The notes under the pieces were generated by a model, which did not search any database, was not told the origin of the DNA, and saw nothing but the letters and a program-made list of their open reading frames with translations. Position numbers and translations under genes: made by a program. This document shows positions 5,063 to 22,052 of a stretch of 64,000 bases of DNA, piece after piece (positions within the stretch are counted from its first letter, which is position 1; each line of letters begins with the position of its first letter). This stretch comes from a virus (Duplodnaviria; Heunggongvirae; Uroviricota; Caudoviricetes), in the IMG/VR virus record IMGVR_UViG_3300025133_000025, one strand, 5' to 3'.

Positions 5063-5389
5063 GTGGGACGACTAAGCAATCAAATTGTTGCAACTGCCAT
5101 TTCGGAGGCAAGGAAGTCGCCGCATGTACATTCTCACCATGGTGCAGTTTTACTTCTTAAGGATGGACATGTTCTTCGTGGTTACAACCATGGACTTACC
5201 CACGCAGAAAAGCATGTTGTAATCAAGGCAGGGTCTCGTGCTTATGACGCTGAGCTTGTTGTTGTTCGTATTCGTGCTGACAATAGCCTGACAAACAGTA
5301 AGCCTTGTGTTAACTGCATGAAGCTCATTAAGAAGTATAGTCTCTCAACATGGTACAGTAATGGCGAAGGAATTGTCGTCAAGCTTTAA
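5063..5389 (+). CDS. cytidine/deoxycytidylate-deaminase-fold zinc enzyme
   Basis: HAE ... PCVNCMKL zinc-binding signature (CDA fold); 108 aa. Confidence 0.55.
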   Translation: MGRLSNQIVATAISEARKSPHVHSHHGAVLLLKDGHVLRGYNHGLTHAEKHVVIKAGSRAYDAELVVVRIRADNSLTNSKPCVNCMKLIKKYSLSTWYSNGEGIVVKL

Positions 5390-6556: not shown

Positions 6557-7412
6557 AAATTTCACTTTCAACGGGAACTATGAGGACTTCCTGACTGGTG
6601 TGAGTCTTGAAGCAGCAAGTTCAAATATTCTCATTGATACCACTGCTTGGAGCGTGCCATCTACAGACGATGTTGTTTTTCTAAGCGACTTCATCAACAG
6701 TCTTCGTGTTGCTTTTCGTAATGGTGTGTCGCTAGACACTGCAGCAAAGGCTGATCTTGAATGGATCGTGGCGCAAATTGACAATGGCACACCAGCTGGT
6801 GTGCTTGTTAAATTTGTAAAGGCACGAGGATGTGATGGCTTTACAAACGAGGTTAAGCGCCAGCTGGCCGAGGCTGGACTTGATTGGGACGTGGCTGTAG
6901 AGGCTGCACAAGCAGCTGTTATTCAAAGCACAACAGTCGGGGGAGGTTACACAGCGAAGGGCACTTGGGTACCCCCTGTGATTCCTGCTCCAAAGCGCGG
7001 CGTTAACCCAGCAGGTGACGCTGGGTACCTGCTTTTTGTGAGTGACATTCAGGTTGAGCCTGACGAAATACCGATGGTGAAGAAGCTACTGATTAACGCA
7101 GTTCATGCTCAAATGATTTCCTTTGCTGATTACAAGTACCTGAGTGAGACTGTACTTGGTTCAACGCAGGCAAGCGAAAAGCAGAAGGTAGACGGGATCA
7201 TTATGTTTATTGAGCGGAAGGCTGCAGGGCGGGTGACTGCGGCGGCCCCACCGTCAGTGACGTCAATAGAAAAATGGGCGCCGCAGGAAAGCAATGTGAC
7301 AGCAGCACTTGAAGCTGCTGTCAAGGGAATTGGGAACCAGACTATCTTCACTGTTCTGCCACAAATTGATTCATTTGGACTGCCAGCGAAAGGTCGGCTG
7401 CTGCCGAATTAA
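6516..7412 (+). CDS. hypothetical protein 298 aa
   Basis: ORF track. Confidence 0.5.
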   Translation: MLCWRRMIMTSPFENFTFNGNYEDFLTGVSLEAASSNILIDTTAWSVPSTDDVVFLSDFINSLRVAFRNGVSLDTAAKADLEWIVAQIDNGTPAGVLVKFVKARGCDGFTNEVKRQLAEAGLDWDVAVEAAQAAVIQSTTVGGGYTAKGTWVPPVIPAPKRGVNPAGDAGYLLFVSDIQVEPDEIPMVKKLLINAVHAQMISFADYKYLSETVLGSTQASEKQKVDGIIMFIERKAAGRVTAAAPPSVTSIEKWAPQESNVTAALEAAVKGIGNQTIFTVLPQIDSFGLPAKGRLLPN

Positions 7413-7416
7413 GCGC

Positions 7417-8139
7417 ATGATTAAAGTTCTACATGCAAGCGATTTGCATGGATACTATTGGAATAAGCTGTGGGCAACTCCTGGACAAGATTTTGATCTT
7501 GTTCTGCTAACTGGAGACATGCTTCCAAATTGGCACCGGGGACCTGCGGGTGGCAAAGAGGGTGATAAGCAGAAAGCCTGGCTTCTTGAAAAAGATAAGC
7601 CAAAGCATGCGACCCATAGGCTTGGTATGGCCATGGAAGCCTTTGGTGATGTTCCTATTGTTGTTGTTGATGGCAACCATGATTTCTTCTGCCTGGGCGA
7701 CTTTATGCTTGAGCAGGGGTATGAAAATGTGTATCCCATCAAGCGCGGAATTGTGCATGAATTGCTAGGCCATCGAATCACCGGCTTTCCCAATATCAAT
7801 TGGATTGCAGGCGAGTGGGCTCATGAAACACGAGCGCCAGAACTCGCTGAATTGTGTGAAGAATTGCTGGCGCAGCACCCAACATTGATTGCCAATCATG
7901 CGCCATTGTCTGGGTATCTTGATAATGGTTATGGTATTCGAGCCATGCCACACTTGCTCCATTATCGGCAGTCTGATTGGGTGCAGTACTATTTCCACGG
8001 CCATGTGCACGAGCATGGTGGAAAAACTACGTATGCTGAGCTAGGCGGTCTGGAAGATGTCGACACGTTTGTTGTTCAGATCTTCAACGGAGCAACAACA
8101 GTAAAGATTCATGAGATTGAAGAAGGTCCGTTCGTATGA
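7417..8139 (+). CDS. calcineurin-like metallophosphoesterase
   Basis: IKVLHASDLHG ... LTGDM ... VVVDGNHDFF motifs; start taken at internal ATG just after the upstream stop. Confidence 0.7.
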   Translation: MIKVLHASDLHGYYWNKLWATPGQDFDLVLLTGDMLPNWHRGPAGGKEGDKQKAWLLEKDKPKHATHRLGMAMEAFGDVPIVVVDGNHDFFCLGDFMLEQGYENVYPIKRGIVHELLGHRITGFPNINWIAGEWAHETRAPELAELCEELLAQHPTLIANHAPLSGYLDNGYGIRAMPHLLHYRQSDWVQYYFHGHVHEHGGKTTYAELGGLEDVDTFVVQIFNGATTVKIHEIEEGPFV

Positions 8140-8354
8140 TTAACATTGGAGACGTTTGGGTACTCAGCGATGGCTCCCGTTTTGTTGTTCAAGGATTTGA
8201 AGACAGTGGTGACGTCGTCATCGGTGTGATGTTTTCAAATTTGGGAATTACGCTTCGAGCTGAAAAGATCCTTGCTATCGAACTGAAGGACCCAGCGCTG
8301 CTTCTTATTCGCGGTGGTTGTCCTGAGCCAATGAAGGCGATTATTTCCGCATAA
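8136..8354 (+). CDS. hypothetical protein
   Basis: ORF track 72 aa, overlapping start. Confidence 0.4.
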   Translation: MINIGDVWVLSDGSRFVVQGFEDSGDVVIGVMFSNLGITLRAEKILAIELKDPALLLIRGGCPEPMKAIISA

Positions 8355-8445
8355 CATACAACGAATTATAATATAAAAGAACAGGGGTTACGGTGAATTT
8401 GTTGCCGTGAAATCCAAACTAGGCCTGACACGAAAGGAACTTCAA

Positions 8446-8871
8446 ATGTCTGGCAATAAGAGTGAGAACACGTCCGCTCCGAGTATCACCCCCACGCGCA
8501 AGTCGCGTTGGAGTGGCCGCTCGGCTACCAACACCAGTCACCTGCAGAACATGCTGCGTGGCGGAGATGTTGAGTACTTCACCGCTGTTAGCGAAGGCTT
8601 TGGTCTCGCTGCTGGCGGTGACATCGAGGCTGCTGTCTCGTCGCTCGGGGACTTCCTTCCCGAAGGCGCAATCGGCTTCATCACGGCTACCAACTCCCGT
8701 CAGTCGAAGGCGGAGGTTGCTGCCGCGGCCAGCTCGGAAGCACGATCTGACATGATTCGCAAGATGTTCTCGTCGAACGTCCTCGCGGGTGCAATTGCTG
8801 CTGGCGTGGTTACCGATGATGAGGCGAAGGCTGCCCTCGATGATGAGCAGTACGCCAGCCTGCAGGCTTAA
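8446..8871 (+). CDS. hypothetical protein, paralog of 1583..1981; somewhat GC-enriched
   Basis: GAAAGGAAC RBS; paralogy noted above; hairpin downstream. Confidence 0.6.
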   Translation: MSGNKSENTSAPSITPTRKSRWSGRSATNTSHLQNMLRGGDVEYFTAVSEGFGLAAGGDIEAAVSSLGDFLPEGAIGFITATNSRQSKAEVAAAASSEARSDMIRKMFSSNVLAGAIAAGVVTDDEAKAALDDEQYASLQA

Positions 8872-8883
8872 TAAACCTGCGTA

Positions 8884-8906
8884 AATAACTACTGCATGGT
8901 AGTTAT
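8884..8906 (+). terminator. hairpin AATAACTAC-TGCATG-GTAGTTAT
   Basis: 8-bp stem right after the 8871 stop; no T-tract. Confidence 0.35.
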
Positions 8907-9044
8907 GGGGCTCCAGGGAAGACGCAGGGTACTGGAGAAGACCAGCGAAGGAATGTGGTAAGAGCGAACCTCTTACCCGGGAACGTTGGACAGGAACGTG
9001 AAATTCGTTCATCCCTTCAAAACAATCAACTTTGAGAGATACAA

Positions 9045-9410
9045 ATGACTCCAGCAGAATGGGCAGAGCAGAAGAGGTTGCAGAAGCGTGCAAAGACGCG
9101 GCGTGAAGATTTCACTCCCAATCCGTCCAAGCGCTTTGTTGCCAACCTTGATCGTGAGCTTGAGGAGGCTGTGCAGCTTGCTGAGGCTGGCGGCCCGTGG
9201 TTTGTGGCCATGGAAGTGCTGGAGCGGCGAGCTGCGCTCATGCAGCATCAAACGTTTCAGATCGTGAATGTCACCAACGATGATGGCACGAACGAACAGG
9301 ACATCATCATTCATGCAGACCATGACGACATCGATATCGGTGCGTTCTTCGGTCGCATGAGCGCAGCGAAGAACCGCGATGGCCAAGGACAAGAAGAAGC
9401 AGGCGCGTAA
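9045..9410 (+). CDS. hypothetical protein 121 aa
   Basis: ORF track; a 59-aa basic ORF in another frame overlaps its 3' end. Confidence 0.45.
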   Translation: MTPAEWAEQKRLQKRAKTRREDFTPNPSKRFVANLDRELEEAVQLAEAGGPWFVAMEVLERRAALMQHQTFQIVNVTNDDGTNEQDIIIHADHDDIDIGAFFGRMSAAKNRDGQGQEEAGA

Positions 9411-9541
9411 GATCGCCGCCGGCGCCAGGCGTGAAGTAACCATTCGTGAGGGTGGAATTTACGCCTGGCGTGGGCGTGCTATTCGTTTCAAGAATAAGCG
9501 CAAAGAGGCACAGCGAAATCACTGCCGACGAAAGGTAAGAA

Positions 9542-9985
9542 GTGATGACCAAGATTGAGTGGGAGAAGCTACTGGCTAATCCTTCGCTTCGAACTGACCC
9601 ACTTCCTGGCCCTGAGGCTGGACGAATTTGGGTTATGACTAGCCGGCCAGCGAGCCGGGAGCCGGAGCTTCTTGAATGCGCGTGGAACAATAACAACGAG
9701 CAGAATACATCATCTTGGCCACCATATTGGGGTGACAGTGCGGAGCCGATGTGGTGCGTTGATTACGCAGGCGCGGAAGGTCACAAGTGGTTTGCTGTAA
9801 ATCCTCTGGCACCAGTCATTAATGCAGATGATTGCAATAGAATTTTCTGTGAGTGGGAGTCTGGGTCGTTCATTAGTGCACGTCATCCAGATTTCCAAAG
9901 AGACTTTAACAGGCTTGTAGCTAAGTATGGGCCGCCTGACACTGTTGAATTCAGAGCGCGCAATGAGGGATGGATTCGAGAATGA
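9542..9985 (+). CDS. hypothetical protein 147 aa
   Basis: ORF track. Confidence 0.5.
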   Translation: MMTKIEWEKLLANPSLRTDPLPGPEAGRIWVMTSRPASREPELLECAWNNNNEQNTSSWPPYWGDSAEPMWCVDYAGAEGHKWFAVNPLAPVINADDCNRIFCEWESGSFISARHPDFQRDFNRLVAKYGPPDTVEFRARNEGWIRE

Positions 9986-10536
9986 TTATTTGCCCAGACA
10001 CTGAAATTGAAGAGCTGGCCGGCGGAGTTTACGACTGGACACCTGAGCGAGCTAGTGAGGCCTGGCAACGCAGTTACCAGAAGCTCGGCGCAGCACTTGT
10101 TGCTTGCGACCCCATGAACACCACATTCATTGTTATGGTTGGTTTGCCCGGGAGCGGGAAGAGCACCTTCTCCAGCTGGTATGACGCGAGCAACGCGACC
10201 TCGCCGAGATCGGCCATCATCTTTGATGCAACCAACGTCGCGCCAATGCGCCGAAGTGCTATGCTCAATGTTGCGATCGGCGCTGGGCTCAAAACAGCTG
10301 CAATCTATGTGCAGTGCAACGTGCAGGTTTCATTGGCCCGGCAAGCAGCTCGGGGCCGAAAGGCAATCAGTGGAGACGTCATCCGACGCATGGACAAGCA
10401 ACTGCGTAAGCCCACTGTTAACGAAGGCTTTGGCGCAATCATTGATGTTGTCACAGTTGAACCACACCCGCGTGACAACAGGGGATGGATTGAAATTAGC
10501 GTAAGTGATCGGTCATTCTGGTGCATTGGAGAGTAA
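9970..10536 (+). CDS. P-loop polynucleotide 5'-kinase-like protein (T4 Pnkp kinase-domain-like)
   Basis: Walker A VMVGLPGSGKSTF; sits directly before the RNA ligase gene. Confidence 0.6.
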   Translation: MDSRMIICPDTEIEELAGGVYDWTPERASEAWQRSYQKLGAALVACDPMNTTFIVMVGLPGSGKSTFSSWYDASNATSPRSAIIFDATNVAPMRRSAMLNVAIGAGLKTAAIYVQCNVQVSLARQAARGRKAISGDVIRRMDKQLRKPTVNEGFGAIIDVVTVEPHPRDNRGWIEISVSDRSFWCIGE

Positions 10537-10537
10537 G

Positions 10538-11719
10538 ATGCTCAACATCGAAGACTTTCGTGCTGCAGCTGAGCAGGGCAGCATCCGGCGCACTGCAAAG
10601 AATGAATACGAGCTATTCAACTACACCAGTGAAACTGCAAATAGTCGACTGTGGAATGAAATCACGCTTGAAGCGCGAGGGGTTGTGTTCCATCGTGGCA
10701 AGATTGTTTGCCGCCCGATGCGCAAGTTCTTCAATAGTCACGAGCCTGGTGCTGACTTTGTTGACGGGCTCTACACACCAGAAGTTCTGCTCAAGAAGCT
10801 TGACGGCACGCTGATTAATTTGTGGTGTGACCTTGATGGTGTACTAAATGTATCAACTCGCGGCAGTCTCGACAACGAATACATTGACGGAGCTTGGGAG
10901 CTAATCAAGCAGAACAGGATTGATAGCGCCATCGCCGCGCACTTCCCAGTAAGCTTCGGTGGTGGAACGTTCAGCTTTGAATACACCTATCCGCAGCTGC
11001 GCTTCGGCAATTCAAGTGTTGTCCCTCATGAGAATGAACGACTGTCGCTTCTCAATATTCGCATGCGAAATGGGTGTGAATATAATGCAGCCAAGATCGA
11101 CCGCTTCGGGGCTGAATTGTACGGCGAAGATGCATTCACGCTTTCACAGAAGCGCTATAGTATTGCAACAAATGTCAGCAACCCCAGTATTCCAGAGGCT
11201 GTAGAACAAGCGCTGCTATTGCCGTATACTGACGAGGGGTGGGTCGTTAGCGCATACGACCATAAGCTGCTGCGTAACATTCGCGTAAAGATTAAGGGTG
11301 CGCAGTATATTGCAATGCATCGAGTTGTTCATGGTATGACCCCACGGTCTGTTGCTGACGCATGGTACGCCGGAGTGACTGATGAACTTCTTGATATGCT
11401 GCTTGAACCGCACAAGAACCAGTTGGCCGAAGCGTTCAAGCCGTATGATGAATTGCTAGCAACTGCAACATCAGTCACGCAGGATTGGGTAGAAAATTAT
11501 CTGGCCGACTCTGAAGAGTTTACTGGTGGGACTGGCTTCGAAAGACGTGAGTTTGTCCTGGACGCGCAGCGTGACATTCCGAATCACTGGCAGTTCGCAA
11601 TTCAGGAATACTACAGTGACTCTGATCCTGACTACAAGAAGTGGGTTGTTCGAAAGCTCAATAACGGTAAGGCACCCCGAGCGTGGGAATTGCCTGTAAC
11701 TGACGATGTGAAGGAGTAG
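10538..11719 (+). CDS. RNA ligase, Rnl1 family (copy 1)
   Basis: nucleotidyltransferase motif I KKLDGTL preceded by RKFFN, as in T4 Rnl1; GGAGAG RBS; start at internal ATG abutting the kinase stop. Confidence 0.7.
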   Translation: MLNIEDFRAAAEQGSIRRTAKNEYELFNYTSETANSRLWNEITLEARGVVFHRGKIVCRPMRKFFNSHEPGADFVDGLYTPEVLLKKLDGTLINLWCDLDGVLNVSTRGSLDNEYIDGAWELIKQNRIDSAIAAHFPVSFGGGTFSFEYTYPQLRFGNSSVVPHENERLSLLNIRMRNGCEYNAAKIDRFGAELYGEDAFTLSQKRYSIATNVSNPSIPEAVEQALLLPYTDEGWVVSAYDHKLLRNIRVKIKGAQYIAMHRVVHGMTPRSVADAWYAGVTDELLDMLLEPHKNQLAEAFKPYDELLATATSVTQDWVENYLADSEEFTGGTGFERREFVLDAQRDIPNHWQFAIQEYYSDSDPDYKKWVVRKLNNGKAPRAWELPVTDDVKE

Positions 11720-11828
11720 TCATGGATATGCAGATTGTTTGGGCAGGGATGAATGCAGCAGAGCAAAATGTTGTTGTTATCTGGCTGCTAATTACTTTCT
11801 GTCTTGGGATTTTGATCGGAAGTCGGTG

Positions 11829-12083
11829 ATGCATATCACCCACACACCATGGCAGGCCGCTGGGTTTGATGAAACTGGTGATGGAGTATGCGAACTCCTT
11901 GAAGCTACGTTTCGTTGCTCAGCACACCTTGCGTACCTTGTAACAGTATCTGTCCCAATCAACGATGGTGATGATTACCTTTTTGATGTTAAGCGAGATG
12001 AGAGTTGGTGCACAGACGGTATTGCCTCATCACTGGCAAGCGTTTCTGCGCAGGTTGAAGAGTGGATTTTAGACTTTGGATAA
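11829..12083 (+). CDS. hypothetical protein
   Basis: start at internal ATG, coupled to a 35-aa hydrophobic mini-ORF upstream. Confidence 0.35.
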   Translation: MHITHTPWQAAGFDETGDGVCELLEATFRCSAHLAYLVTVSVPINDGDDYLFDVKRDESWCTDGIASSLASVSAQVEEWILDFG

Positions 12084-12086
12084 AGC

Positions 12087-12398
12087 ATGATTAATAGAGC
12101 AAAAGAAATCGCCAGTGAAGTTGCCAATTATCTTCAGACCGCCGTTGGCGAGATGGGTCACGGCTATGAGACAATGCCTGGTTTGTACGGTATCGAAGAT
12201 CTGCCTCCCCTTCGACAGCGGTTGGCCCGCCGGGGTGATGGATCGCTCGCTGATGCCTTCTACAATGATGAAGGATTGATGCACGACTTGGCAGGCGACC
12301 GCATTTATGATGCAGCCGGTGATGATGACAATCTCTTTAATGAGATTCTCAGTCACATGCCGCGGCACATCAACTGGGATGACCTTAAGAGAAAATGA
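12087..12398 (+). CDS. hypothetical protein 103 aa
   Basis: ORF track. Confidence 0.45.
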   Translation: MINRAKEIASEVANYLQTAVGEMGHGYETMPGLYGIEDLPPLRQRLARRGDGSLADAFYNDEGLMHDLAGDRIYDAAGDDDNLFNEILSHMPRHINWDDLKRK

Positions 12399-13045
12399 AC
12401 CCGCTCATCTTTCTTGATGTCGACGGCGTACTTAACACGCTTAAGTGGAACACACAGGCTGCGAAGTTACACCCTGACGTACAGGCGCTGTTAAGCAATG
12501 ACGATCCTCGGCTAACGACAGATTTCTCTATTGACACCTGGGCACACATGGTTGACCCAGCTAGGGTTGATCATGTGCAAAGAATCGCTGAGCTAACAGG
12601 CGCTGATATTGTCATCAGCTCTTCTTGGCGATTGCACCATGAGTTGGACGAGTTGCGTGAGATGCTTGGTGAAAAAGGGTTGGCTGCTGATGTCATTGGC
12701 AGAACGCCAACATTCTCTCTTGCAAACACAGCAGCATACTACGACAATATTCGTGGTCTTGAAATTGAGCAATGGCTTTTGCAAAACATTTCGCTGGCCG
12801 GACTTGTCGACCAGCGCCTCATTATCTTGGACGATGAAAAAGATATGGGAAGATTGCGGTCCCACCTGATTCAAACTAACTGGACTGGTGGAGGCCTGTT
12901 GCAGAAGCATATTGCAAAAGCCCAGCGTGTCATGAACACAGTCCCAGCAGGAAAAAAGATTGCTGAGCAACCCAACCCAGCTTGGCGTCGCGACGCTGCA
13001 ATAAAACTGTACGGCGAAGACTACATCGTTGCCCTGGAAGCTTAA
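12395..13045 (+). CDS. HAD-superfamily phosphatase (polynucleotide 3'-phosphatase-like)
   Basis: motif I FLDVDGVLNT (DxDG) at the N-terminus; 216 aa. Confidence 0.6.
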   Translation: MNPLIFLDVDGVLNTLKWNTQAAKLHPDVQALLSNDDPRLTTDFSIDTWAHMVDPARVDHVQRIAELTGADIVISSSWRLHHELDELREMLGEKGLAADVIGRTPTFSLANTAAYYDNIRGLEIEQWLLQNISLAGLVDQRLIILDDEKDMGRLRSHLIQTNWTGGGLLQKHIAKAQRVMNTVPAGKKIAEQPNPAWRRDAAIKLYGEDYIVALEA

Positions 13046-13183
13046 ATAGCTCTGCACTGTCGTCAGCGCACACTGCGCCAGCTCCGCACATTCTCTGCGT
13101 TGAGCATTCAGCTAAATTAATCAACTCAGTTTGCAGTCTGCTTCATCGCGCTGAAAGACCCGGCGCCCTGTTTGGCGCTGAGC

Positions 13184-16034: not shown

Positions 16035-16892
16035 TCAACCGATGATTTCTTTAATCTTACGCTCAACTCGAACAAACTTACCATCAATGCAGTAGCCATC
16101 ACGGGGACCCCATGGTTCTGCATGCGCAGCCAAGGCCTCCACACTGATGAAGCAACCATCAGGGTCATCGTCAGTGTATACAATACACGACAACTGATCT
16201 CCGAAAACGCAGCCTGTATCCACGCCTCTGGCGAATGGAAACACTGCTGGTCCCTTGAATGGCTGGTGTCCAAAGACTGCAGTTCCGAACCGCCCGTCGT
16301 ACACTTCTGCCCAGTAGGAATCTTCAGGCCCTTCTTTTCCAAGCATCACGGGCATACCCTTGCTTCCGCTGATGAAACGCGTCCAACAGAGCGTTCCAAA
16401 GAACTTCTTGGTTTTTCCTGCAAGTGTAATGAATGGTGCAGTGACTTCTGTACCGATGTTCTGCATTGCTGCTGGAATGCCGGCGTGAATGACGATCAAT
16501 TCCCACTCAGGAATCCTGATGGCGAGAGGAAGACTGCAAAGGAATGCATAGTGATCCGCAGTCAGGAGCTCGTTGATTTCAACAAACCCGCCTGTACCAG
16601 ACACTGGACTTCCGCGCCTGGACTTCCGCATCGGATTGTTCTTGGGACCCTTTTCAATGTCATGCTTCTTGAAGCGCCGGTGCTTGTCTTCATGGTTGCC
16701 CATGACAACGTCATAGCCCTTCTCAATGACATAGTCAAGCAGTTCAATCTGCTTCGGCCCCTTGTCAAGAAGATCCCCGACAAAGACACGGCGGATGCCA
16801 CCTGGGAACTGCCTGTCGAGCTCTGCTTCCAGTGCAAGGAGCTCATCAAAGCAACCGTGAATGTCACCAATAATTGCTACAGGTTCCGGCAT
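16035..16892 (-). CDS. Ser/Thr protein phosphatase (lambda PPase / ApaH-like metallophosphatase)
   Basis: GDIHGC ... GDLLDKGP ... GNHE motifs. Confidence 0.75.
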   Translation of the reverse strand: MPEPVAIIGDIHGCFDELLALEAELDRQFPGGIRRVFVGDLLDKGPKQIELLDYVIEKGYDVVMGNHEDKHRRFKKHDIEKGPKNNPMRKSRRGSPVSGTGGFVEINELLTADHYAFLCSLPLAIRIPEWELIVIHAGIPAAMQNIGTEVTAPFITLAGKTKKFFGTLCWTRFISGSKGMPVMLGKEGPEDSYWAEVYDGRFGTAVFGHQPFKGPAVFPFARGVDTGCVFGDQLSCIVYTDDDPDGCFISVEALAAHAEPWGPRDGYCIDGKFVRVERKIKEIIG

Positions 16893-17644: not shown

Positions 17645-17720
17645 TTGGAGGGCCATCCGGGATTTGAACCCGGGACGTGGGGATTAAGAGTCCCTTGTTC
17701 TACCAGCTGAACTAATGGCC
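17645..17720 (-). tRNA. tRNA-Lys (anticodon CTT), CCA encoded
   Basis: manual fold: 7-bp acceptor GGGCCAT/ATGGCCC, D arm GTTC..GAAC, loop CTCTTAA, T arm CCGGG-TTCAAAT-CCCGG. Confidence 0.75.
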
Positions 17721-17730
17721 CAGATACTTT

Positions 17731-17994
17731 TTACTTTTTGAAGAAGAGAGGTTGGCTGCCCGGAGCTGCCGGAACTGCATCTTCTGCCAACACGTACTTC
17801 TGATACGAGATCGCGATCTTTCCGTCAGGCAGCTTAGTTTCAACTTCGACCAGAATCTTATCAGGTGGCTCAGCTACAATTTCGTATTCACCGAGAATTG
17901 ATGGGCGTTGTGTGCGTGTCATATGCGCCTCCTGTATTCTTTGAGATCCTTGCGGAGCTCTGCCTTGATCCTTCGTGCAGTTTCTCCCCGCCAA
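17731..17994 (-). CDS. hypothetical protein
   Basis: ORF track 87 aa. Confidence 0.35.
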   Translation of the reverse strand: MAGRNCTKDQGRAPQGSQRIQEAHMTRTQRPSILGEYEIVAEPPDKILVEVETKLPDGKIAISYQKYVLAEDAVPAAPGSQPLFFKK

Positions 17995-18224
17995 GTCGTT
18001 GCGTTTGAGAGAAAATACAACACAACAGATTCGCCATCGTCCAGACCGTACTGTGATGTAAAGTCATCCAAATAAAGCATTGCATTCAAATACGGTTGGG
18101 CGTGAGGAGAAACATTCTGCCAGTCAGTTAGAATCTCTTCAGTAATTTTCCAAATCGGTCGCATCTTACTCTCCCTAGCAGCTAATGTACTGTGTATGGA
18201 AACCAGCGTGACTTCCATCAACAA
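17919..18224 (-). CDS. hypothetical protein
   Basis: ORF track 101 aa; overlaps neighbours, so true starts are uncertain. Confidence 0.35.
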   Translation of the reverse strand: MLMEVTLVSIHSTLAARESKMRPIWKITEEILTDWQNVSPHAQPYLNAMLYLDDFTSQYGLDDGESVVLYFLSNATTWRGETARRIKAELRKDLKEYRRRI

Positions 18225-18414
18225 CGTAGCGAATGAGTCGAAAATTGTTTCCTCGTCGAGGCTCGCCCTTCATGGAAGCCACTACATCATCGATGCTAGG
18301 TGCCAAAACCTTGCCCAGGCGCTGTCCTTCACGGTACAAAAACCCAGCTCGTGTCAGCCTGAAGTGGGTTCCTGCCTTTGTCACAATTTCCATGTTCTTC
18401 ATTATCTTCCTCAT
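18175..18414 (-). CDS. hypothetical protein
   Basis: ORF track 79 aa. Confidence 0.35.
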   Translation of the reverse strand: MRKIMKNMEIVTKAGTHFRLTRAGFLYREGQRLGKVLAPSIDDVVASMKGEPRRGNNFRLIRYVVDGSHAGFHTQYISC

Positions 18415-18420
18415 TTTAAA

Positions 18421-18497
18421 TGGTCAGGGTGGCAGGTCTCGAACCTGCGAACCTCCGGACCCCAAGACCGGCGCTCTACCAACTGAGCTACACCCTG
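18421..18497 (-). tRNA. tRNA-Pro (anticodon TGG), CCA encoded
   Basis: manual fold: acceptor CAGGGTG, loop CTTGGGG, T arm GCAGG-TTCGAGA-CCTGC. Confidence 0.7.
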
Positions 18498-18519
18498 TTA
18501 TTTTCCTTCAAGTTCTTCA

Positions 18520-19098
18520 TCAAGTTCGCCAAGCCCGAGCATTCTCTCTATCTAGCTGCGCAAGGTGCTCAAGCCCAAGATCGTATTGAGCCTCATACAT
18601 GCGCCACAAAGAGTCAACATTCGTATCGTACGAAGGTGAATGCTTCGAAGCATTCAAGGCGAGCATAAACGATTCTCTCTCACCCAAATACATGGAAAAT
18701 TTGTCAACCTTTCCACGCTTAAGAATTGACCCAACACTGGCCTTGACATTTGCAATTCTGTCAGCCAGCTTTACAATCACAGCATTTTCAACACTTGCTG
18801 TTTTTGGATACGTGTTCTGGTGCCGCTCTTTTCGAGTTTCACCCGGGCCGTCAGAGACTGCCCAGACAAGCTGGGCAATTTGCCAACCAAACAACTCTTC
18901 GATATCCTGCACAGTATCGCTTGTGTCTTCAATGTTGTCATGGAGAATTACTGCAATTCTCAGCGTCTTTTCCATGATCCCAACAGAGACAAGCACATCA
19001 TGCGCATCACGAAGGTGCTTCAAATATGAAAAATCTCCATACAGCACACCATCGAATTTGTCTTCTGCATGCTTCCAAGCTTTGCTAATTCTATCCAT
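18520..19098 (-). CDS. HD-domain phosphohydrolase
   Basis: H ... HDNIEDT ... D metal-binding signature. Confidence 0.6.
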   Translation of the reverse strand: MDRISKAWKHAEDKFDGVLYGDFSYLKHLRDAHDVLVSVGIMEKTLRIAVILHDNIEDTSDTVQDIEELFGWQIAQLVWAVSDGPGETRKERHQNTYPKTASVENAVIVKLADRIANVKASVGSILKRGKVDKFSMYLGERESFMLALNASKHSPSYDTNVDSLWRMYEAQYDLGLEHLAQLDRENARAWRT

Positions 19099-19121
19099 TA
19101 TCTATGTTTCTATTTCGAATT

Positions 19122-19197
19122 TGGTGGAGACAAGGGGGATCGAACCCCTGACCTGCTGCTTGCAAAGCAGCCGCTCTCCCAACTGAGCTATGTCCCC
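19122..19197 (-). tRNA. tRNA-Cys (anticodon GCA), CCA encoded
   Basis: manual fold: acceptor GGGGACA/TGTCTCC, anticodon stem CTGCT/AGCAG, loop TTGCAAG. Confidence 0.75.
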
Positions 19198-19204
19198 AAA
19201 AGCT

Positions 19205-19333
19205 TTAAAAGAACAGTGCCTTAATGATCAGAGCTGCGCCACCAAACAAAACCAAATTTGCAATGATGCCAACTACAATAAGAACAGCGCCTCCCTTGAA
19301 GAAGGTGCCAAAGAAATCGTCGTCGTTATCCAT
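19205..19333 (-). CDS. small hydrophobic protein (42 aa, MDNDDDFFGTFF...)
   Basis: AAAGGAA RBS 7 nt upstream; lies between a promoter motif and tRNA-Cys. Confidence 0.3.
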   Translation of the reverse strand: MDNDDDFFGTFFKGGAVLIVVGIIANLVLFGGAALIIKALFF

Positions 19334-19355
19334 GTTCATTTCCTTTCATTCCTGT

Positions 19356-19388
19356 TTATATTGTACAATGTAGTTTCCAGCGCGGAAA
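19356..19388 (-). promoter_or_regulatory. phage promoter motif (TTTCCG-N14-TTGTACAAT)
   Basis: conserved architecture; upstream of the small ORF and tRNA-Cys. Confidence 0.4.
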
Positions 19389-19396
19389 CATGCAAT

Positions 19397-19708
19397 TCAA
19401 AGACTGTACACAAACACATCAAAGTCATGCCAGACTGTATCAATGATCGTTTCAATAATGTCCCAGTCACCGCCACCAAGACCAGCTCCGATTTTTGGAA
19501 ATCCGATCTTTGGATCTCTTTCACCCCACGCACTCAAATTACACCCTTCAAGAACGTCAGCTCGCATTGCCTCCATTGCAAAACGAATTGCTGCGTACTC
19601 AGCATGTCGGCCATGGCCATAACCGTATTGTGTATAGAGGTTGTAGACGTGCATTGGCTCTTCATCACGATTCGATGCAACTGCAACTGCAAACGTACCA
19701 AGCTTCAT
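19397..19708 (-). CDS. hypothetical protein (weak macro-domain-like C-terminal pattern KIGFPKIGAGLGGGDW)
   Basis: ORF track 103 aa; no in-frame N-terminal extension is possible. Confidence 0.4.
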   Translation of the reverse strand: MKLGTFAVAVASNRDEEPMHVYNLYTQYGYGHGRHAEYAAIRFAMEAMRADVLEGCNLSAWGERDPKIGFPKIGAGLGGGDWDIIETIIDTVWHDFDVFVYSL

Positions 19709-19864
19709 CGGATCACTACGCTTGGTGTTGAGCCTATCGGCATCGTAAACATGTGGCCAAGTCTGCCTAAGTTGTCATGCAATTGCAGCCGTGACCAATA
19801 ATATCACAATCTGATTTAAGTAATCGCCCTGCACATGTGTTACAGACATTTTGCTCCACTGAAA

Positions 19865-19941
19865 TGGTAGGAGGGGTGGGGATTGAACCCACGCATCATC
19901 GACTCATAAGATCGCTGCCTTTACCACTTGGCCACCCTCCT
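19865..19941 (-). tRNA. tRNA with anticodon TAT (Ile-UAU-like), CCA encoded
   Basis: manual fold: acceptor AGGAGGG/CCCTCCT, T arm GTGGG-TTCAATC-CCCAC, 4-bp anticodon stem, loop CTTATGA. Confidence 0.55.
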
Positions 19942-20003
19942 ATGAGTGAGTAGTAATTTTGGCATACACTTAGGATCATCGCCAATGACACTGGCGCTGT
20001 TAT

Positions 20004-21440
20004 TTACAATCTAGAATTCACACACTCTTCGTACGCCTTATCATCACGCCAACGAACAATTCGTGGGAAACGAAGTGCGTCAGTTTTATCACCATCAGAC
20101 CTGTACGTGCGTGAATCGTATTCAACTTCTACAACAAGCGGGTAGATGCTTTTGTCACTTAGATCTACCCGCAGCAGACCATCGGGATATTCCTTTGTGA
20201 ACTTATCCTTGATGCCGCCGCCAGCCTTACAGATCCATACCTCTTCCCCAGCCTCATTCAGCTGGTAAAGCCCGACACTGCCGCACATGCCCTGGTGCTT
20301 GCCCTTGCCGTACTCGCCGATGTCGTCTTCAGGATCCCAGCGAGCGATGAAGTCATCCTCATAGGAGGGCTTTACCTTGGCACACATGCCACGAGGCCTG
20401 TCGGGCTTACCCCTGAAGTTGAACGCCTTCTCACCATAGACAGCTGTCGGATCAACAACCACGAAGCCTTCCCAATCCAACTCCTTCGCCAGATCAGTTG
20501 CCATTGTAAGCACAGGCGGAAAATCCGCAAACTCATCTTCAAGATCAGTTGCAAGCTGCAAATCACTCGGTGTCCAAACATCCAGAGGCAGAATTGGTGT
20601 ATGTCCGAGCACCCACCAGTTCTCTAGTTTAAGCCACTCCCTGTTCATTGGCTCAAGGAGCTTTTGCCTTTCGGCGAAAGACATCGTCTTGGCAACTTCA
20701 ACACCGCCCCAAATGGCAACATCCCAGATATAATACGACACCCAACCGTCCGCTGCTTGGATGGCAAGTGATTCATGAGTCAGTGACTTTGTAACACGAG
20801 CGACGTGCGTGAAGTCATCGACACCACCGCGGTCCATGACCATCTCACCAAGGAACACAGTATTGGGTGGGAAGATTTCGACCTCAGCCATCGCTTCAAA
20901 TTCTTCTACAATCTTCGGGTAACGAAGTGCCCACGGTTTCCCAGGTTCCTTGTCCATCGACTGAAGCATTCGGCGGGAGTACACTTCAGTGCTGTCAGCA
21001 GTAACGCGAATCACGTGCATCATGCCGTCACGCTTGCGGCCGAAGATGGCTTTCCCATCCTCAATCAGCTTGAGCATCTTGCCGCCAGGCTTGTTGTTCG
21101 GCTTGTAGAAGCAGAGATTTGTTGGCAATGGCTCGTCGGCGCTTACAGCTTCAACTCGCACTTCTGTGGCAACACCATCAACATATTCAATGTAGCCTGC
21201 CCTGCGCTGCTCTTCAATCTTCTTATCGACCCGTGTCTGGGCAAATTCCTCTGGGCTTAGCTCATTTGACTTACCAATGTTGACACCAGCGTAAGTATGG
21301 GATGCCTCCTGCATCTGCCCACCGAGCTGGCCGTAACGAACTGTCTCTGTTGCTCCATGGAGCTCAATTGTCCAAAGAAGCGCAGCTGTCCTGCCCTTTT
21401 GTCGAAATTCACGCATAATCACTTCTTTCTCTGCAACCAA
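20004..21440 (-). CDS. ATP-dependent DNA ligase with N-terminal WGR-like domain
   Basis: motif I KRDGMMHV and motif VI FPRIVRWRDDK; N-terminal VRYGQLGG ... KK ... GY resembles WGR. Confidence 0.8.
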   Translation of the reverse strand: MVAEKEVIMREFRQKGRTAALLWTIELHGATETVRYGQLGGQMQEASHTYAGVNIGKSNELSPEEFAQTRVDKKIEEQRRAGYIEYVDGVATEVRVEAVSADEPLPTNLCFYKPNNKPGGKMLKLIEDGKAIFGRKRDGMMHVIRVTADSTEVYSRRMLQSMDKEPGKPWALRYPKIVEEFEAMAEVEIFPPNTVFLGEMVMDRGGVDDFTHVARVTKSLTHESLAIQAADGWVSYYIWDVAIWGGVEVAKTMSFAERQKLLEPMNREWLKLENWWVLGHTPILPLDVWTPSDLQLATDLEDEFADFPPVLTMATDLAKELDWEGFVVVDPTAVYGEKAFNFRGKPDRPRGMCAKVKPSYEDDFIARWDPEDDIGEYGKGKHQGMCGSVGLYQLNEAGEEVWICKAGGGIKDKFTKEYPDGLLRVDLSDKSIYPLVVEVEYDSRTYRSDGDKTDALRFPRIVRWRDDKAYEECVNSRL

Positions 21441-21784
21441 CCAAAGCTGAGTGCGTAGCTTGTCTCACTGGCACGTGATACGCCATGGATAACCTCATCA
21501 GGCCTGAAGATGTTCAGCCTATTGGCGAAAAAGCCTCCATAGGCCGCACGTGCACGAGCAAATAGTGACTGCCCCTGCACAAGTCTCGAACCTGTCGCTC
21601 CCCGCCAGAAAACAAAGTTAACGCGCCAATGCTTGAATCCATCAGGCGCTGGGTCTTTGTGATATGCAATGTGCACACCCTTTGGGAGCTTAAGTAGAAC
21701 TAAGTGCATGCGCAGGCGTTTTGAGTTGAGCAGCTCCACCTTGAAATAATCGCCACCTTGCCGGCCAGGTACCCACTTGAACAT
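21419..21784 (-). CDS. hypothetical protein 121 aa
   Basis: ORF track. Confidence 0.45.
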   Translation of the reverse strand: MFKWVPGRQGGDYFKVELLNSKRLRMHLVLLKLPKGVHIAYHKDPAPDGFKHWRVNFVFWRGATGSRLVQGQSLFARARAAYGGFFANRLNIFRPDEVIHGVSRASETSYALSFGWLQRKK

Positions 21785-21790
21785 AACTGC

Positions 21791-22051: not shown

Positions 22052-22052
22052 C

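What the first reader, a model, noticed from the sequence alone, without database searches (positions are those of the whole stretch)
7417..13045. tRNA healing and sealing module: metallophosphoesterase, P-loop kinase, Rnl1 ligase, HAD phosphatase
Gene set:
- P-loop kinase (9970..10536) abuts an Rnl1-family RNA ligase (10538..11719, KKLDGTL after RKFFN).
- A HAD phosphatase with an N-terminal DVDGVL motif (12395..13045) follows.
- A calcineurin-like phosphoesterase (7417..8139) sits 2 kb upstream.

What is known:
- Together these supply the 5'-kinase, 2',3'-phosphate removal and sealing activities of the T4 Pnkp plus Rnl1 pathway.
- That pathway repairs tRNAs cut by host anticodon nucleases such as PrrC.
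- Here the Pnkp functions are split into separate genes, unlike the fused T4 enzyme.

Extra context:
- The same genome carries an 18-locus tRNA array, a second Rnl1, an HD hydrolase, a Pol-beta NTase and a SpoU methyltransferase.
Basis: partly seen in the sequence, partly recalled or inferred. Interest (0 to 1): 0.7.

Follow-up and report, generated by a model that had tools for sequence, protein, structure and literature searches.

The report
Phage RNA break-repair gene cluster
An uncultured large phage carries a cluster of separate kinase, RNA ligase and phosphatase genes that most likely mends RNAs (probably tRNAs) cut by host defences. This kind of cluster is already described in big phages, but here the kinase has an unusual rearranged chain order.

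Summary
Four same-strand genes at 7417-13045 encode a metallophosphoesterase, a PNK-clade P-loop kinase (true start 9982, not 9970), a T4 Rnl1-family RNA ligase with every essential Rnl1 residue, and a HAD phosphatase of Pfam family HAD_SAK_2 ("Swiss Army Knife RNA repair").

In six distinct contexts carrying this ligase clade (about 50% identity), HAD_SAK_2 sits 1-3.5 kb downstream every time. An AAA_33 kinase is nearby in four of six, and a metallophosphoesterase in four of six. The reading as an RNA end-healing and sealing module is therefore well supported by computation, but no biochemistry exists.

It is not a literally split T4 Pnkp. The HAD is a different family, and the kinase belongs to another subfamily. 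Standalone SAK-HAD, PNK, calcineurin-like enzymes and RlaP alongside Rnl1 are already described for jumbo phages (PMC7824862). This is a new member of a known kind.

Two additions. The kinase is order-swapped: the strand-Asp-helix segment that normally follows the P-loop lies at the N-terminus, as in at least 83 clusters of uncultured sequences.

The parts
7417..8139 (+). Metallophosphoesterase MPE1 (240 aa). Possible 2',3'-cyclic phosphodiesterase or 3'-phosphatase of the module, but membership is uncertain.
   Evidence: Pfam Metallophos E 1.6e-9. All metal ligands are invariant. The AF2 model has pLDDT 90.7. The best solved fold match is the phosphodiesterase MPPED2 (E 2e-8), followed by Mre11/SbcD, LpxH and purple acid phosphatase. 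A profile of its family weakly detects (22-26 bits) the MPE that lies between the ligase and HAD_SAK_2 in L007/L009/L010. Closer homologues (33-39% id) in L017/L019 have no ligase, kinase or HAD within 8 kb.
9542..9985 (+). ORF of unknown function (146-147 aa), translationally coupled to the kinase.
   Evidence: Its stop TGA overlaps the kinase ATG as ATGA. No Pfam, PHROG or NCBIfam hit. Not conserved in L006 by tblastn.
9982..10536 (+). Order-swapped PNK-like P-loop kinase (184 aa). Predicted RNA 5'-OH kinase.
   Evidence: AAA_33 E 5e-12, phrog_505 polynucleotide kinase. The AF2 model has pLDDT 88.3 and pTM 0.85. Fold neighbours are polynucleotide kinases. A profile built from canonical-order relatives matches it in three out-of-order pieces. 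An artificially re-ordered sequence scores 149 bits, against 130 for the native sequence and 111-114 for the shuffled and reversed controls. D6 aligns with T4 Pnk D35. K60, D82, R120 and R124 are conserved.
10538..11719 (+). Rnl1-family ATP-dependent RNA ligase (393 aa). The sealing enzyme.
   Evidence: phrog_562 E 1.5e-45, PF09511 E 2.5e-8, TIGR02308 E 2.4e-18 over model positions 29-339 of 373. Family profile vs PDB: T4 Rnl1 2c5u E 2.7e-26, residues 49-327. Invariant R47, K63, F64, K87/D89/G90 (motif I), E148, E233, K251 and K253; R108 conserved in at least 90% of sequences.
11829..12083 (+). Small ORF (84 aa as called in the assembly), unknown function.
   Evidence: Gene call in L004/L005. 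No family hit for the longer 11739-12083 reading.
12087..12398 (+). Conserved 103-aa acidic protein that precedes and overlaps the HAD gene. Unknown function, possible partner of the phosphatase.
   Evidence: 43% identical to the ORF in the same position upstream of HAD_SAK_2 in L006. Its end overlaps the HAD start by 4 nt. No family hit.
12395..13045 (+). HAD_SAK_2 phosphatase (216 aa). Predicted RNA 3'/2'-phosphomonoesterase for end healing.
   Evidence: PF18143 E 6.3e-27, phrog_1818 E 1.5e-22. Motif I D8-x-D10, motif II S75/S76 and motif IV D146-D147 are invariant across five orthologues. The gene is found downstream of this ligase clade in 6 of 6 distinct contexts.
16035..16892 (-). Second metallophosphoesterase MPE2 (285 aa), lambda-phosphatase / ApaH / bacterial-Pnkp type. 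An alternative or additional end-healing phosphoesterase in the divergent unit next to the tRNA array.
   Evidence: Metallophos E 1.1e-10. Best NCBIfam hit is TIGR04075 bacter_Pnkp, positions 181-423 of 851, E 1.8e-18. PDB: 2qjc E 8e-15; 4j6o 'Metallophosphoesterase' E 5.9e-12 (from memory, this entry is the C. thermocellum Pnkp phosphatase domain); also ApaH and lambda phosphatase.

Best explanation
The cluster is an RNA end-healing and sealing system of an uncultured large phage (source contig 175.7 kb). It most likely re-joins tRNAs or other RNAs that host ribonuclease defences have cut, leaving 2',3'-cyclic phosphate and 5'-OH ends.

Proposed steps:
1. The cyclic or monoester phosphate at the 3' side is removed. 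The HAD_SAK_2 phosphatase acts with Asp8 as nucleophile and Asp10 as acid/base. It may act after ring opening by a metallophosphodiesterase: MPE1 at 7417, and/or the bacterial-Pnkp-like MPE2 at 16035.
2. The 184-aa kinase phosphorylates the 5'-OH. P-loop Lys60 and lid Arg120/Arg124 hold the NTP, and Asp6 acts as general base.
3. The Rnl1 ligase is adenylylated on Lys87, activates the 5'-phosphate and seals the nick.

What is shown here by sequence and model:
- family assignments of all four enzymes;
- intact catalytic residues;
- tight translational coupling of ORF9542-kinase-ligase and of ORF12087-HAD;
- recurrent co-location of the enzyme classes in relatives.

What is inferred:
- every enzymatic activity;
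- the division of labour among the three phosphoesterases;
- tRNA as the substrate.

The kinase is a topological variant. The strand-Asp-helix-helix unit that follows the P-loop helix in T4 Pnk and in its own canonical-order relatives has moved to the N-terminus.
For: Family placement:
- Ligase: phrog_562 E 1.5e-45 and TIGR02308 E 2.4e-18. T4 Rnl1 structures are the best PDB matches, E 2.7e-26, with only one far weaker tRNA ligase hit besides, and every Rnl1 essential residue is conserved.
- HAD: PF18143 E 6.3e-27 with intact motifs.
- Kinase: closest solved folds are polynucleotide kinases, and viral predicted folds likewise. The catalytic Asp, P-loop Lys, Walker-B-like Asp and lid arginines are conserved.

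Operon-like layout:
- ATGA overlap at 9982 and a 1-nt gap between kinase and ligase.
- 4-nt overlap of ORF12087 with the HAD gene.
- Terminator-like hairpins fall inside the coding sequences rather than between genes.

Conserved neighbourhood:
- L006: the same kinase (64% id), ligase (50%), ORF12087 homologue (43%), HAD (58%), then a CCA-adding-type PolyA_pol.
- L007 and JGI 3300072015: canonical AAA_33 kinase, ligase, Metallophos, HAD_SAK_2, cRec.
- L009/L010: ligase, Metallophos, HAD_SAK_2, cRec.
- L001: ligase and HAD_SAK_2.
- L016: the order-swapped kinase again sits immediately before a very distant Rnl1 (E 6.9e-38 to PF09511). That ligase carries a 2H/CPD-like tail with HxT/S motifs and a tRNA_lig_CPD hit at E 0.007, which is below threshold.
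- The kinases and MPEs paired with this ligase clade are non-orthologous between lineages. This argues for selection on the activity rather than inheritance of a block.

Genome context:
- 16 tRNA genes, a second Rnl1-like ligase, RlaP, an NT5C-type HAD, an HD_4 hydrolase and SpoU.

Literature:
- The same enzyme combination is described as the jumbo-phage RNA repair apparatus in PMC7824862, section 3.4.9.
Against: - No activity has been measured for any HAD_SAK_2 protein that I could find. A literature search on the family names returned nothing.
- The kinase lacks the T4 Arg38 equivalent (D-T-E-I instead of D-D-Y-R). Its clade also contains non-RNA kinases such as 6PF2K and zeta toxin.
- Two other members of the order-swapped kinase family lie among large unannotated genes with no ligase within 7 kb.
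- L001 and L009/L010 show no kinase within 8 kb of the ligase.
- MPE1 is separated from the kinase by about 1.8 kb holding four unrelated small ORFs. Its nearer homologues are not ligase-linked.
- The ligase scores far below the TIGR02308 equivalog cut-off (66 against 242 bits). Substrate specificity cannot be assumed from T4.
Confidence: 0.7

Rival explanations
1. The same chemistry is at work, but the physiological substrates are not tRNA anticodon loops. The cluster is a general RNA break-repair kit for phage mRNA, rRNA or any RNA cut by metal-independent RNases such as HEPN or toxin RNases and CRISPR-associated ancillary RNases. Alternatively it processes or circularises a phage RNA.
For: Nothing in the sequence fixes the substrate. 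The ligase is only a distant Rnl1 (66 bits against the 242-bit equivalog cut-off). Its C-terminal domain aligns with T4 only at low identity. The genome carries a second Rnl1-like ligase, RlaP and an MVP-like protein, which suggests several RNA repair routes with different targets. PMC7824862 argues that multiple ligases specialise on different RNase effectors.
Against: The Rnl1 family is the tRNA-repair ligase in the one studied case (T4; established knowledge). In L006 the cluster ends with a CCA-adding-type enzyme, which is tRNA-specific. The window cluster lies 4.6 kb from a 16-gene tRNA array.
Confidence: 0.17
2. The genes are not one functional unit. The ligase works alone or with the HAD. 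The kinase is a nucleotide, nucleoside or other small-molecule kinase. The metallophosphoesterases degrade signalling nucleotides (as counter-defence) or dephosphorylate proteins. Their proximity simply reflects the packing of early or accessory genes.
For: The PNK/AAA_33 clade includes small-molecule kinases (6PF2K E 3e-6, zeta toxin). MPE1's best fold match, MPPED2, is deposited as a metallophosphodiesterase; from memory, it acts on cyclic nucleotides. MPE2 also matches ApaH/PrpE Ap4A hydrolases and lambda protein phosphatase. MPE1 homologues and two order-swapped kinases occur away from ligases. The window is rich in nucleotide-metabolism genes: cytidine-deaminase-like, ThyA, RNR, GMP reductase and NT5C.
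Against: The kinase-ligase gap is 1 nt, with a Shine-Dalgarno-like GGAG inside the kinase 3' end. The order-swapped kinase is immediately adjacent to Rnl1-type ligases in three contexts that share little else: the window, L006 and L016. Non-orthologous AAA_33 kinases and MPEs accompany the same ligase clade in other lineages. The Asp that aligns with the T4 5'-OH-activating D35 is nearly invariant.
Confidence: 0.1

Closest known systems
Bacteriophage T4 Pnkp (pseT) plus Rnl1 (gp63) tRNA restriction-repair pathway
   Same: The same three chemical steps are predicted: 5'-OH kinase, removal of the 2',3'-phosphate and ATP-dependent sealing. The ligase belongs to the same family (Rnl1), with the equivalents of T4 R54, K75, F77, K99, D101, G102, K119 (Arg here), E159, E227, K240 and K242 all present. 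The kinase shares the P-loop Lys and the equivalents of D35, D85, R122 and R126.
   Different: The kinase and phosphatase are separate genes. The phosphatase is HAD_SAK_2, not the PNK-type HAD (hhalign probability 27.6%). No T4-type HAD is found anywhere in the window. The kinase has its beta2-Asp-helix unit ahead of the P-loop and lacks the R38 equivalent. Ligase identity to T4 is low: phmmer E 3e-7, and the TIGR02308 score is below the cut-off.
Jumbo-phage RNA repair gene sets described by comparative genomics (Iyer et al. 2021, PMC7824862; Burroughs and Aravind 2016, cited there as ref. 178)
   Same: Rnl1/Rnl2 ligases are accompanied by polynucleotide kinases, standalone 'Swiss-army-knife' HAD phosphatases, occasional calcineurin-like and HD phosphoesterases, cRec, RlaP NTases, CCA-adding enzymes and large tRNA arrays. 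All of these classes are found in the window or in its relatives.
   Different: This genome is not close to any deposited phage. There is no megablast hit, PolIII alpha is at most 31% identical, and the kinase has no tblastn hit. That paper's text holds no mention of a re-ordered polynucleotide kinase. I could not read the 2016 paper.
Bacterial Pnkp/Hen1 RNA repair system (Clostridium thermocellum Pnkp: kinase, binuclear metallophosphoesterase, ligase)
   Same: It uses a P-loop polynucleotide kinase and a calcineurin-type metallophosphoesterase for end healing. MPE2 at 16035-16892 matches the phosphoesterase region of TIGR04075 (E 1.8e-18) and the metallophosphoesterase chain 4j6o, E 5.9e-12. 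The CthPnkp kinase is among the fold neighbours of the window kinase.
   Different: There is no fusion, no Hen1 methyltransferase was detected, and the ligase is Rnl1 rather than the Pnkp-type ligase domain.
Fungal/plant tRNA ligase Trl1 (ligase, kinase, 2H cyclic phosphodiesterase)
   Same: It combines a ligase with a PNK-clade kinase. In relative L016 the order-swapped kinase precedes an Rnl1-type ligase that carries a 2H/CPD-like C-terminal tail. The ligase family profile gives a weak hit to a deposited 'tRNA ligase' chain, 9qw7, E 2e-4.
   Different: The window itself shows no 2H domain. End healing is predicted to be done by HAD and MPE enzymes, which would leave 2'-OH/3'-OH rather than a 2'-phosphate junction.

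Membership tests
Rnl1 (T4 RnlA) RNA ligase family | Covalent nucleotidyltransferase motifs I (KxDG), III, IV and V | tested here: met
   K87-L-D89-G90, E148, E233 and K251/K253 are invariant in the 12-sequence alignment. They align with T4 K99/D101/G102, E159, E227 and K240/K242.
Rnl1 (T4 RnlA) RNA ligase family | Rnl1-specific upstream residues (T4 R54, K75, F77, K119; list from memory of Shuman-lab mutagenesis) | tested here: met
   R47, K63 and F64/F65 are conserved. R108 replaces K119 conservatively.
Rnl1 (T4 RnlA) RNA ligase family | Rnl1-type C-terminal helical domain | tested here: met
   The profile alignment to 2c5u runs to residue 327 of 375. TIGR02308 is matched over positions 29-339 of 373. 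Identity in this part is low, and no structure model of the ligase was made.
Rnl1 (T4 RnlA) RNA ligase family | Equivalog-level score (NCBIfam TIGR02308 cut-off 242 bits) | tested here: not met
   66.4 bits. It is a divergent family member, not a T4 equivalog. The Pfam PF09511 gathering score is met (34.5 against 28.3).
Rnl1 (T4 RnlA) RNA ligase family | Seals 3'-OH/5'-P breaks in tRNA anticodon loops | not testable with these tools
   Needs enzyme assays.
T4-type Pnkp (bifunctional kinase plus PNK-HAD phosphatase) | Kinase and HAD phosphatase fused in one polypeptide | tested here: not met
   The kinase (9982-10536) and the HAD (12395-13045) are separate genes, with the ligase and two or three small ORFs between them.
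T4-type Pnkp (bifunctional kinase plus PNK-HAD phosphatase) | Kinase catalytic set: P-loop Lys, general-base Asp (D35), R38, D85, R126 | tested here: inconclusive
   K60, D6 (aligned to D35), D82, R120 and R124 are present. The R38 position is Ile and is not conserved in the subfamily. The elements occur in a different order along the chain.
T4-type Pnkp (bifunctional kinase plus PNK-HAD phosphatase) | Phosphatase of the PNK-associated HAD family | tested here: not met
   hhalign of the HAD alignment against the T4 Pnkp phosphatase domain gives probability 27.6%, with only 45 columns aligned around motif II. Pfam assigns HAD_SAK_2 only.
HAD_SAK_2 (PF18143) | Score above the Pfam gathering threshold over the whole domain | tested here: met
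   95.1 bits against a cut-off of 27.5, profile positions 1-132 of 139.
HAD_SAK_2 (PF18143) | HAD catalytic motifs: I (DxD), II (S/T), IV (DD) | tested here: met
   D8, D10, S75/S76 and D146/D147 are invariant in five orthologues. Invariant R120 is a candidate for motif III; this is inferred.
HAD_SAK_2 (PF18143) | RNA 3'/2'-phosphatase activity | not testable with these tools
   I found no experimental report. The role is a published prediction.
PNK-like clade of P-loop kinases (Pfam AAA_33) | Sequence and fold membership | tested here: met
   AAA_33 46.7 bits against a cut-off of 27. Foldseek gives probability 1.00 for PNKP, CthPnkp kinase, PSTK and Mucorales kinases, with TM about 0.5-0.57.
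PNK-like clade of P-loop kinases (Pfam AAA_33) | Canonical order: beta1, P-loop, alpha1, beta2-Asp, helices, beta3 | tested here: not met
   The native sequence matches a canonical-order profile as three out-of-order pieces: N-terminal residues 2-41 to profile positions 29-66, residues 46-69 to positions 2-24, and residues 71-158 to positions 62-150. Re-ordering restores a single full-length match at 149 bits.
Bacterial Pnkp phosphoesterase domain (TIGR04075 region, lambda-phosphatase-like) | Sequence similarity to the Pnkp metallophosphoesterase domain | tested here: not met
   This applies to MPE1 (7417-8139): no NCBIfam hit, no PDB sequence hit, and fold neighbours are MPPED2, Mre11 and LpxH. 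It is met instead by MPE2 (16035-16892): TIGR04075 positions 181-423, E 1.8e-18, and 4j6o E 5.9e-12.

The most novel reading that the evidence does not exclude
The kinase may represent a previously undescribed, order-swapped lineage of polynucleotide-kinase-like P-loop enzymes. In this lineage the beta2-catalytic-Asp-helix unit is encoded ahead of the P-loop. It was found in at least 83 of the top 150 clusters (50% identity) of uncultured sequences, and is absent from deposited phage genomes at tblastn sensitivity.

On this reading it is the active RNA 5'-kinase of a phage repair system. That system would divide 3'-end healing among up to three unrelated phosphoesterases: HAD_SAK_2, an MPPED2-like MPE and a bacterial-Pnkp-like MPE.
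Probability: 0.45. Interest if true: 0.5.

Novelty: new member of a known kind. Interest (0 to 1): 0.35.

Why it matters
The cluster adds one more example, from an uncharacterised marine-type large phage lineage, to the known theme that big phages carry RNA end-healing and sealing enzymes alongside tRNA arrays to survive host attacks on translation.

Its practical value is threefold:
- It offers a compact set of separate, small enzymes in which the predicted but untested HAD_SAK_2 RNA phosphatase activity could finally be assayed.
- It exposes a natural re-ordering of secondary-structure elements in a polynucleotide-kinase-like fold. This is useful for understanding how P-loop kinases tolerate topology changes, and it provides a compact 150-185 aa candidate RNA kinase.
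- It shows that non-orthologous kinases and metallophosphoesterases are recruited repeatedly around one ligase clade, which is evidence for selection on the pathway rather than on particular genes.

None of this overturns current understanding.

Tried and rejected
- Megablast of 7000-13100 against deposited phages found no match. tblastn of the kinase against phages also found none. No annotated relative could therefore be borrowed.
- The search for related loci with the kinase alone in IMG/VR gave no confirmed relative. With the 25-sequence kinase alignment the tool found no stretch conserved enough to search with.
- A degenerate DNA pattern for the MIISPD...W[ST]P motif gave only two IMG/VR loci. 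Too little flank was held to judge their neighbourhood.
The HAD was compared with T4 Pnkp by hhalign only.
- The afdb50 fold library was unavailable, so the taxonomic spread of the order-swapped kinase among UniProt proteins is unknown.
- Model coordinates are not exposed. I could not measure whether Asp6 sits where T4 Asp35 does. The claim rests on profile alignment, the re-ordering test and a one-to-one correspondence of secondary-structure elements.
- The 2016 Burroughs and Aravind paper could not be opened. One search call failed on term length.
- I considered that the resemblance between the N-terminal 'MIICPD' and P0008 was an artefact of word-based candidate selection. I rejected this after the index-free search found 83 same-order clusters, and after re-ordered sequences beat the shuffled, reversed and deleted controls in 83 of 83 cases.
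- I considered MPE1 and the MPE of L007/L009 to be orthologues. I rejected this at BLASTP level; only weak profile similarity remains.
- I looked in the window for a CCA-adding enzyme or cRec like those of the relatives. tblastn found none.

Full report
**What is in the sequence**

The window is part of a 175.7-kb metagenomic contig, ENA ERZ27249139 k141_178795. It has no nucleotide-level relative among deposited phages. Its PolIII alpha is at most about 31% identical to any phage protein.

Genes run on the + strand up to 13045 and on the - strand from 13184 onward. All four genes named in the finding are real.

- **MPE1, 7417-8139.** A metallophosphoesterase: Pfam Metallophos E 1.6e-9, with all metal ligands invariant in its family.
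- **Kinase, 9982-10536.** AAA_33 E 5e-12, PHROG 'polynucleotide kinase' E 7e-10, and partial matches to bacterial Pnkp and PSTK models. The start is 9982, not 9970. This agrees with the assembly's gene call, with the family N-terminus, and with an ATGA overlap onto the upstream ORF.
- **Ligase, 10538-11719.** It begins 1 nt after the kinase stop, with a GGAG upstream.
- **HAD, 12395-13045.** HAD_SAK_2, 'HAD domain in Swiss Army Knife RNA repair proteins', E 6.3e-27. Its start overlaps the end of a 103-aa ORF.

**The ligase**

By itself the protein finds only T4 Rnl1 structures in the PDB, at E 3e-7. A profile of it and eleven relatives finds 2c5u at E 2.7e-26 across residues 49-327, reaching into the C-terminal domain. 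No DNA ligase or capping enzyme appears.

The residues essential in T4 Rnl1 all have conserved counterparts. The T4 numbering comes from memory of published mutagenesis. I checked my recalled T4 sequence against the alignment printed.

| T4 Rnl1 | Window ligase |
|---|---|
| R54 | R47 |
| K75 / F77 | K63 / F65 |
| K99 / D101 / G102 | K87 / D89 / G90 |
| K119 | R108 |
| E159 | E148 |
| E227 | E233 |
| K240 / K242 | K251 / K253 |

The protein scores well below the NCBIfam equivalog cut-off, 66 against 242 bits. It is therefore a divergent Rnl1, not a T4 orthologue in the strict sense.

**The kinase**

Against solved structures, the best sequence hits are archaeal PSTK and T4 polynucleotide kinase.

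An alignment with its first homologues showed something odd. The window protein and a 64%-identical relative lack the roughly 50 residues between the P-loop helix and the 'DATN' strand. In T4 Pnk that stretch holds the general base D35 and R38. The two proteins carry about 45 extra N-terminal residues instead.

An index-free search of 1.84 billion representatives found 808 homologues at E up to 0.001. Among the top 150:
- 83 have the same order, with 'MIISPD..G.Y.W[ST]PER...AW' first and the P-loop near residue 50;
- 52 have the canonical order, carrying the same motif after the P-loop helix.

A profile built from the canonical set matches the native window protein in three out-of-order pieces:
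- residues 2-41 to profile positions 29-66;
- residues 46-69 to profile positions 2-24;
- residues 71-158 to profile positions 62-150.

I then moved the N-terminal segment computationally to its canonical place. The score rose to 149 bits as one full-length match. For comparison, the native protein scored 130, the shuffled and reversed controls 111 and 114, and the deleted control 106. Across the family, re-ordered sequences beat every control in 83 of 83 cases, with a mean gain over shuffled controls of 33 ± 7 bits.

In the same profile T4 Pnk aligns so that its D35 coincides with the nearly invariant Asp of 'SPD', which is Asp6 here. T4 R38 falls on a non-conserved hydrophobic position.

The AlphaFold model is confident: pLDDT 88.3, pTM 0.85, and the N-terminal 40 residues at about 97. 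Its element order is short strand, helix, long helix, strand, P-loop, helix, strand and so on. As I recall the T4 Pnk fold, this corresponds element for element, apart from the swap.

Foldseek places it among polynucleotide kinases in the PDB: mammalian PNKP, Mucorales kinases, CthPnkp kinase and PSTK. It does the same among viral predicted structures. TM scores are only about 0.5-0.57, as expected if an order-dependent aligner cannot use the swapped unit.

I could not obtain coordinates, so the position of Asp6 in the active site is inferred and not measured.

**The phosphoesterases**

*HAD.* The protein has intact motifs I (D8, D10), II (S75/S76) and IV (D146/D147). It is not the T4 Pnkp type of HAD: hhalign probability is 27.6%, and tblastn with T4 Pnkp finds only the kinase in the window.

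*MPE1.* The model is good (pLDDT 90.7). Its nearest solved folds are the phosphodiesterase MPPED2, then Mre11/SbcD, LpxH and purple acid phosphatases. This suits a phosphodiesterase but does not indicate a substrate.

*MPE2.* This second metallophosphoesterase was not in the finding. It lies at 16035-16892 on the - strand, next to the tRNA array. Its best curated-family hit is the phosphoesterase region of bacterial Pnkp, TIGR04075 positions 181-423, E 1.8e-18. It also matches the PDB chain 4j6o, E 5.9e-12, and ApaH, PrpE and lambda phosphatase. From memory, 4j6o is the C. thermocellum Pnkp phosphatase domain.

**Is the cluster a unit?**

Within the window:
- ORF9542, the kinase and the ligase are translationally coupled. 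ORF12087 and the HAD are coupled likewise.
- The promoter scan is at chance level. The terminator-like hairpins it found fall within the coding sequences, not between genes.

Elsewhere, every context I could retrieve with a ligase of this clade (48-52% identity) has HAD_SAK_2 1-3.5 kb downstream on the same strand. That is six distinct contexts, counting the window.

| Context | Kinase | Metallophosphoesterase | HAD_SAK_2 | Other |
|---|---|---|---|---|
| Window | order-swapped | MPE1, about 2.4 kb upstream of the ligase | yes | none |
| L006 | order-swapped | none (short contig, 5.4 kb) | yes | PolyA_pol (CCA-adding type) |
| L007 | canonical AAA_33 | between ligase and HAD | yes | cRec |
| JGI 3300072015 | AAA_33 | between ligase and HAD | yes | cRec |
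| L009/L010 | none detected | between ligase and HAD | yes | cRec |
| L001 | none detected | none detected | yes | none |

So four of six contexts have an AAA_33 kinase within 3 kb, and four of six have a Metallophos gene.

The kinases and MPEs are not orthologous between lineages by BLASTP. The MPE1 family profile does weakly recognise the MPE of L007/L009/L010, at 22-26 bits.

L006 reproduces the window order: kinase 64% identical, ligase 50%, ORF12087 homologue 43% and HAD 58%. It then adds a CCA-adding-type nucleotidyltransferase.

In L016 a third order-swapped kinase sits immediately before a very distant Rnl1-type ligase. That ligase has a C-terminal tail with two HxT/S motifs and a sub-threshold match to the fungal tRNA ligase CPD domain.

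Evidence against tight linkage:
- two order-swapped kinases (P0028, P0031) have no ligase within 7 kb;
- the nearer MPE1 homologues have no ligase, kinase or HAD within 8 kb.

**Most likely mechanism**

The cluster most likely repairs RNA breaks that have 2',3'-cyclic phosphate and 5'-OH ends.
1. A metallophosphodiesterase (MPE1 and/or MPE2) and the HAD_SAK_2 phosphatase restore a 3'-OH.
2. The kinase supplies the 5'-phosphate.
3. The Rnl1 ligase seals the nick.

Several observations favour tRNA as the substrate:
- T4 provides the precedent (established knowledge);
- the CCA-adding enzyme in L006 is tRNA-specific;
- the window cluster lies close to a 16-gene tRNA array;
- the rest of the window holds RlaP, a second Rnl1-like ligase, SpoU and an HD_4 hydrolase.

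The substrate is nonetheless inferred. All activities are predictions. I found no experimental study of HAD_SAK_2.

**Comparison with what is known, and novelty**

Section 3.4.9 of Iyer et al. 2021 (PMC7824862) already describes the same toolkit in jumbo phages. It lists ATP-dependent Rnl1/Rnl2 ligases together with:
- polynucleotide kinases;
- HAD phosphatases, either fused 'PNK-HAD' or standalone 'Swiss-army-knife' HADs;
- occasional calcineurin-like and HD phosphatases;
- cRec, RlaP and CCA-adding enzymes;
- large tRNA complements.

The window is therefore a new member of a known kind.

What I did not find described is the order-swapped kinase. The searchable literature gave nothing on it, although I could not read the 2016 source paper. 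It is a modest structural novelty. It does not change the predicted chemistry.

**Verdict**

- Interest is moderate to low for the module as such. It is somewhat higher for the kinase topology and for having untested HAD_SAK_2 chemistry in an accessible set of small proteins.

Noticed in passing
window 16035-16892 (-): A second metallophosphoesterase (285 aa). Its best curated match is the phosphoesterase domain of bacterial Pnkp (TIGR04075 positions 181-423, E 1.8e-18), with PDB 4j6o at E 6e-12. It also resembles ApaH, PrpE and lambda phosphatase.
   Followed up: partly
window 30645-33287 (-): An 880-aa protein with Major Vault Protein domains: MVP_shoulder E 1e-21, Vault_3 E 2e-8, Band_7 E 1e-6 and a weak Vault repeat. 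A vault-shell-like protein in a phage genome, about 1.1 kb from the NT5C gene that adjoins RlaP, is unusual and was not explored further.
   Followed up: no
window 34371-35935 (-): An RlaP Pol-beta nucleotidyltransferase (34961-35935, PF10127 E 3.7e-12) is directly followed by an NT5C-type HAD (34371-34964, E 8e-13) with overlapping ends. An NT5C homologue (32% id) also lies near the kinase-ligase pair in L016. This may be a second healing-enzyme pair.
   Followed up: partly
window 42461-43705 (-): A second Rnl1-like RNA ligase (414 aa; PF09511 E 6e-16, TIGR02308 E 9e-10), about 21% identical to the first ligase. Its neighbours have no family assignment.
   Followed up: partly
window 17646-27737 (-): A tRNA array of 15 genes by ARAGORN (Lys, Pro, Ala, Ile, Arg, Tyr, His, Thr, Ser, Val, Leu x2, Met, Asn, Gln), plus one further tRNA at 26764-26833 found only by Rfam. 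The genes are spread among small ORFs. A RelA/SpoT-type HD_4 hydrolase (18520-19098) and a divergent ATP-dependent DNA ligase (20004-21440) lie inside the array.
   Followed up: partly
L016 7001-8819 (Logan SRR13612672_201285): An order-swapped kinase is immediately followed by a 452-aa Rnl1-type ligase. The ligase's C-terminal roughly 110 residues carry two HxT/S motifs (HHVTL, FHITVS) and a sub-threshold hit to the fungal tRNA ligase CPD domain. The same contig encodes EF-Ts, an RF-1-like release factor, a sigma-70-like factor and a DUF2828/DUF7788 protein.
   Followed up: partly
L007 13252-13623; L009 13053-13424; L010 8514-8885: A cREC_REC (PF20274) gene follows HAD_SAK_2 in the relatives of the ligase cluster. 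This is the 'cyclic-phosphate processing Rec' domain that PMC7824862 links to RNA ligases. No homologue was found in the window by tblastn.
   Followed up: partly
window 12087-12398 (+): A 103-aa acidic protein with no family assignment overlaps the HAD start. It is conserved (43% id) in the same position in L006. It may be a partner or regulator of the phosphatase.
   Followed up: partly
window 57791-58342 (-) and 55586-56605 (-): A weak proteasome-subunit-like protein (PF00227 E 2.8e-5) and a full-length IMPDH/GMP-reductase-family enzyme (E 6e-88) lie among the replication and nucleotide-metabolism genes: PolIII alpha, RNR, ThyA and DnaB.
   Followed up: no
window 5063-5389 (+): A small cytidine/dCMP-deaminase-like protein (108 aa; NCBIfam cytidine deaminase E 4e-5, weak precomputed PF00383 hit) lies upstream of the cluster.
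   Followed up: no
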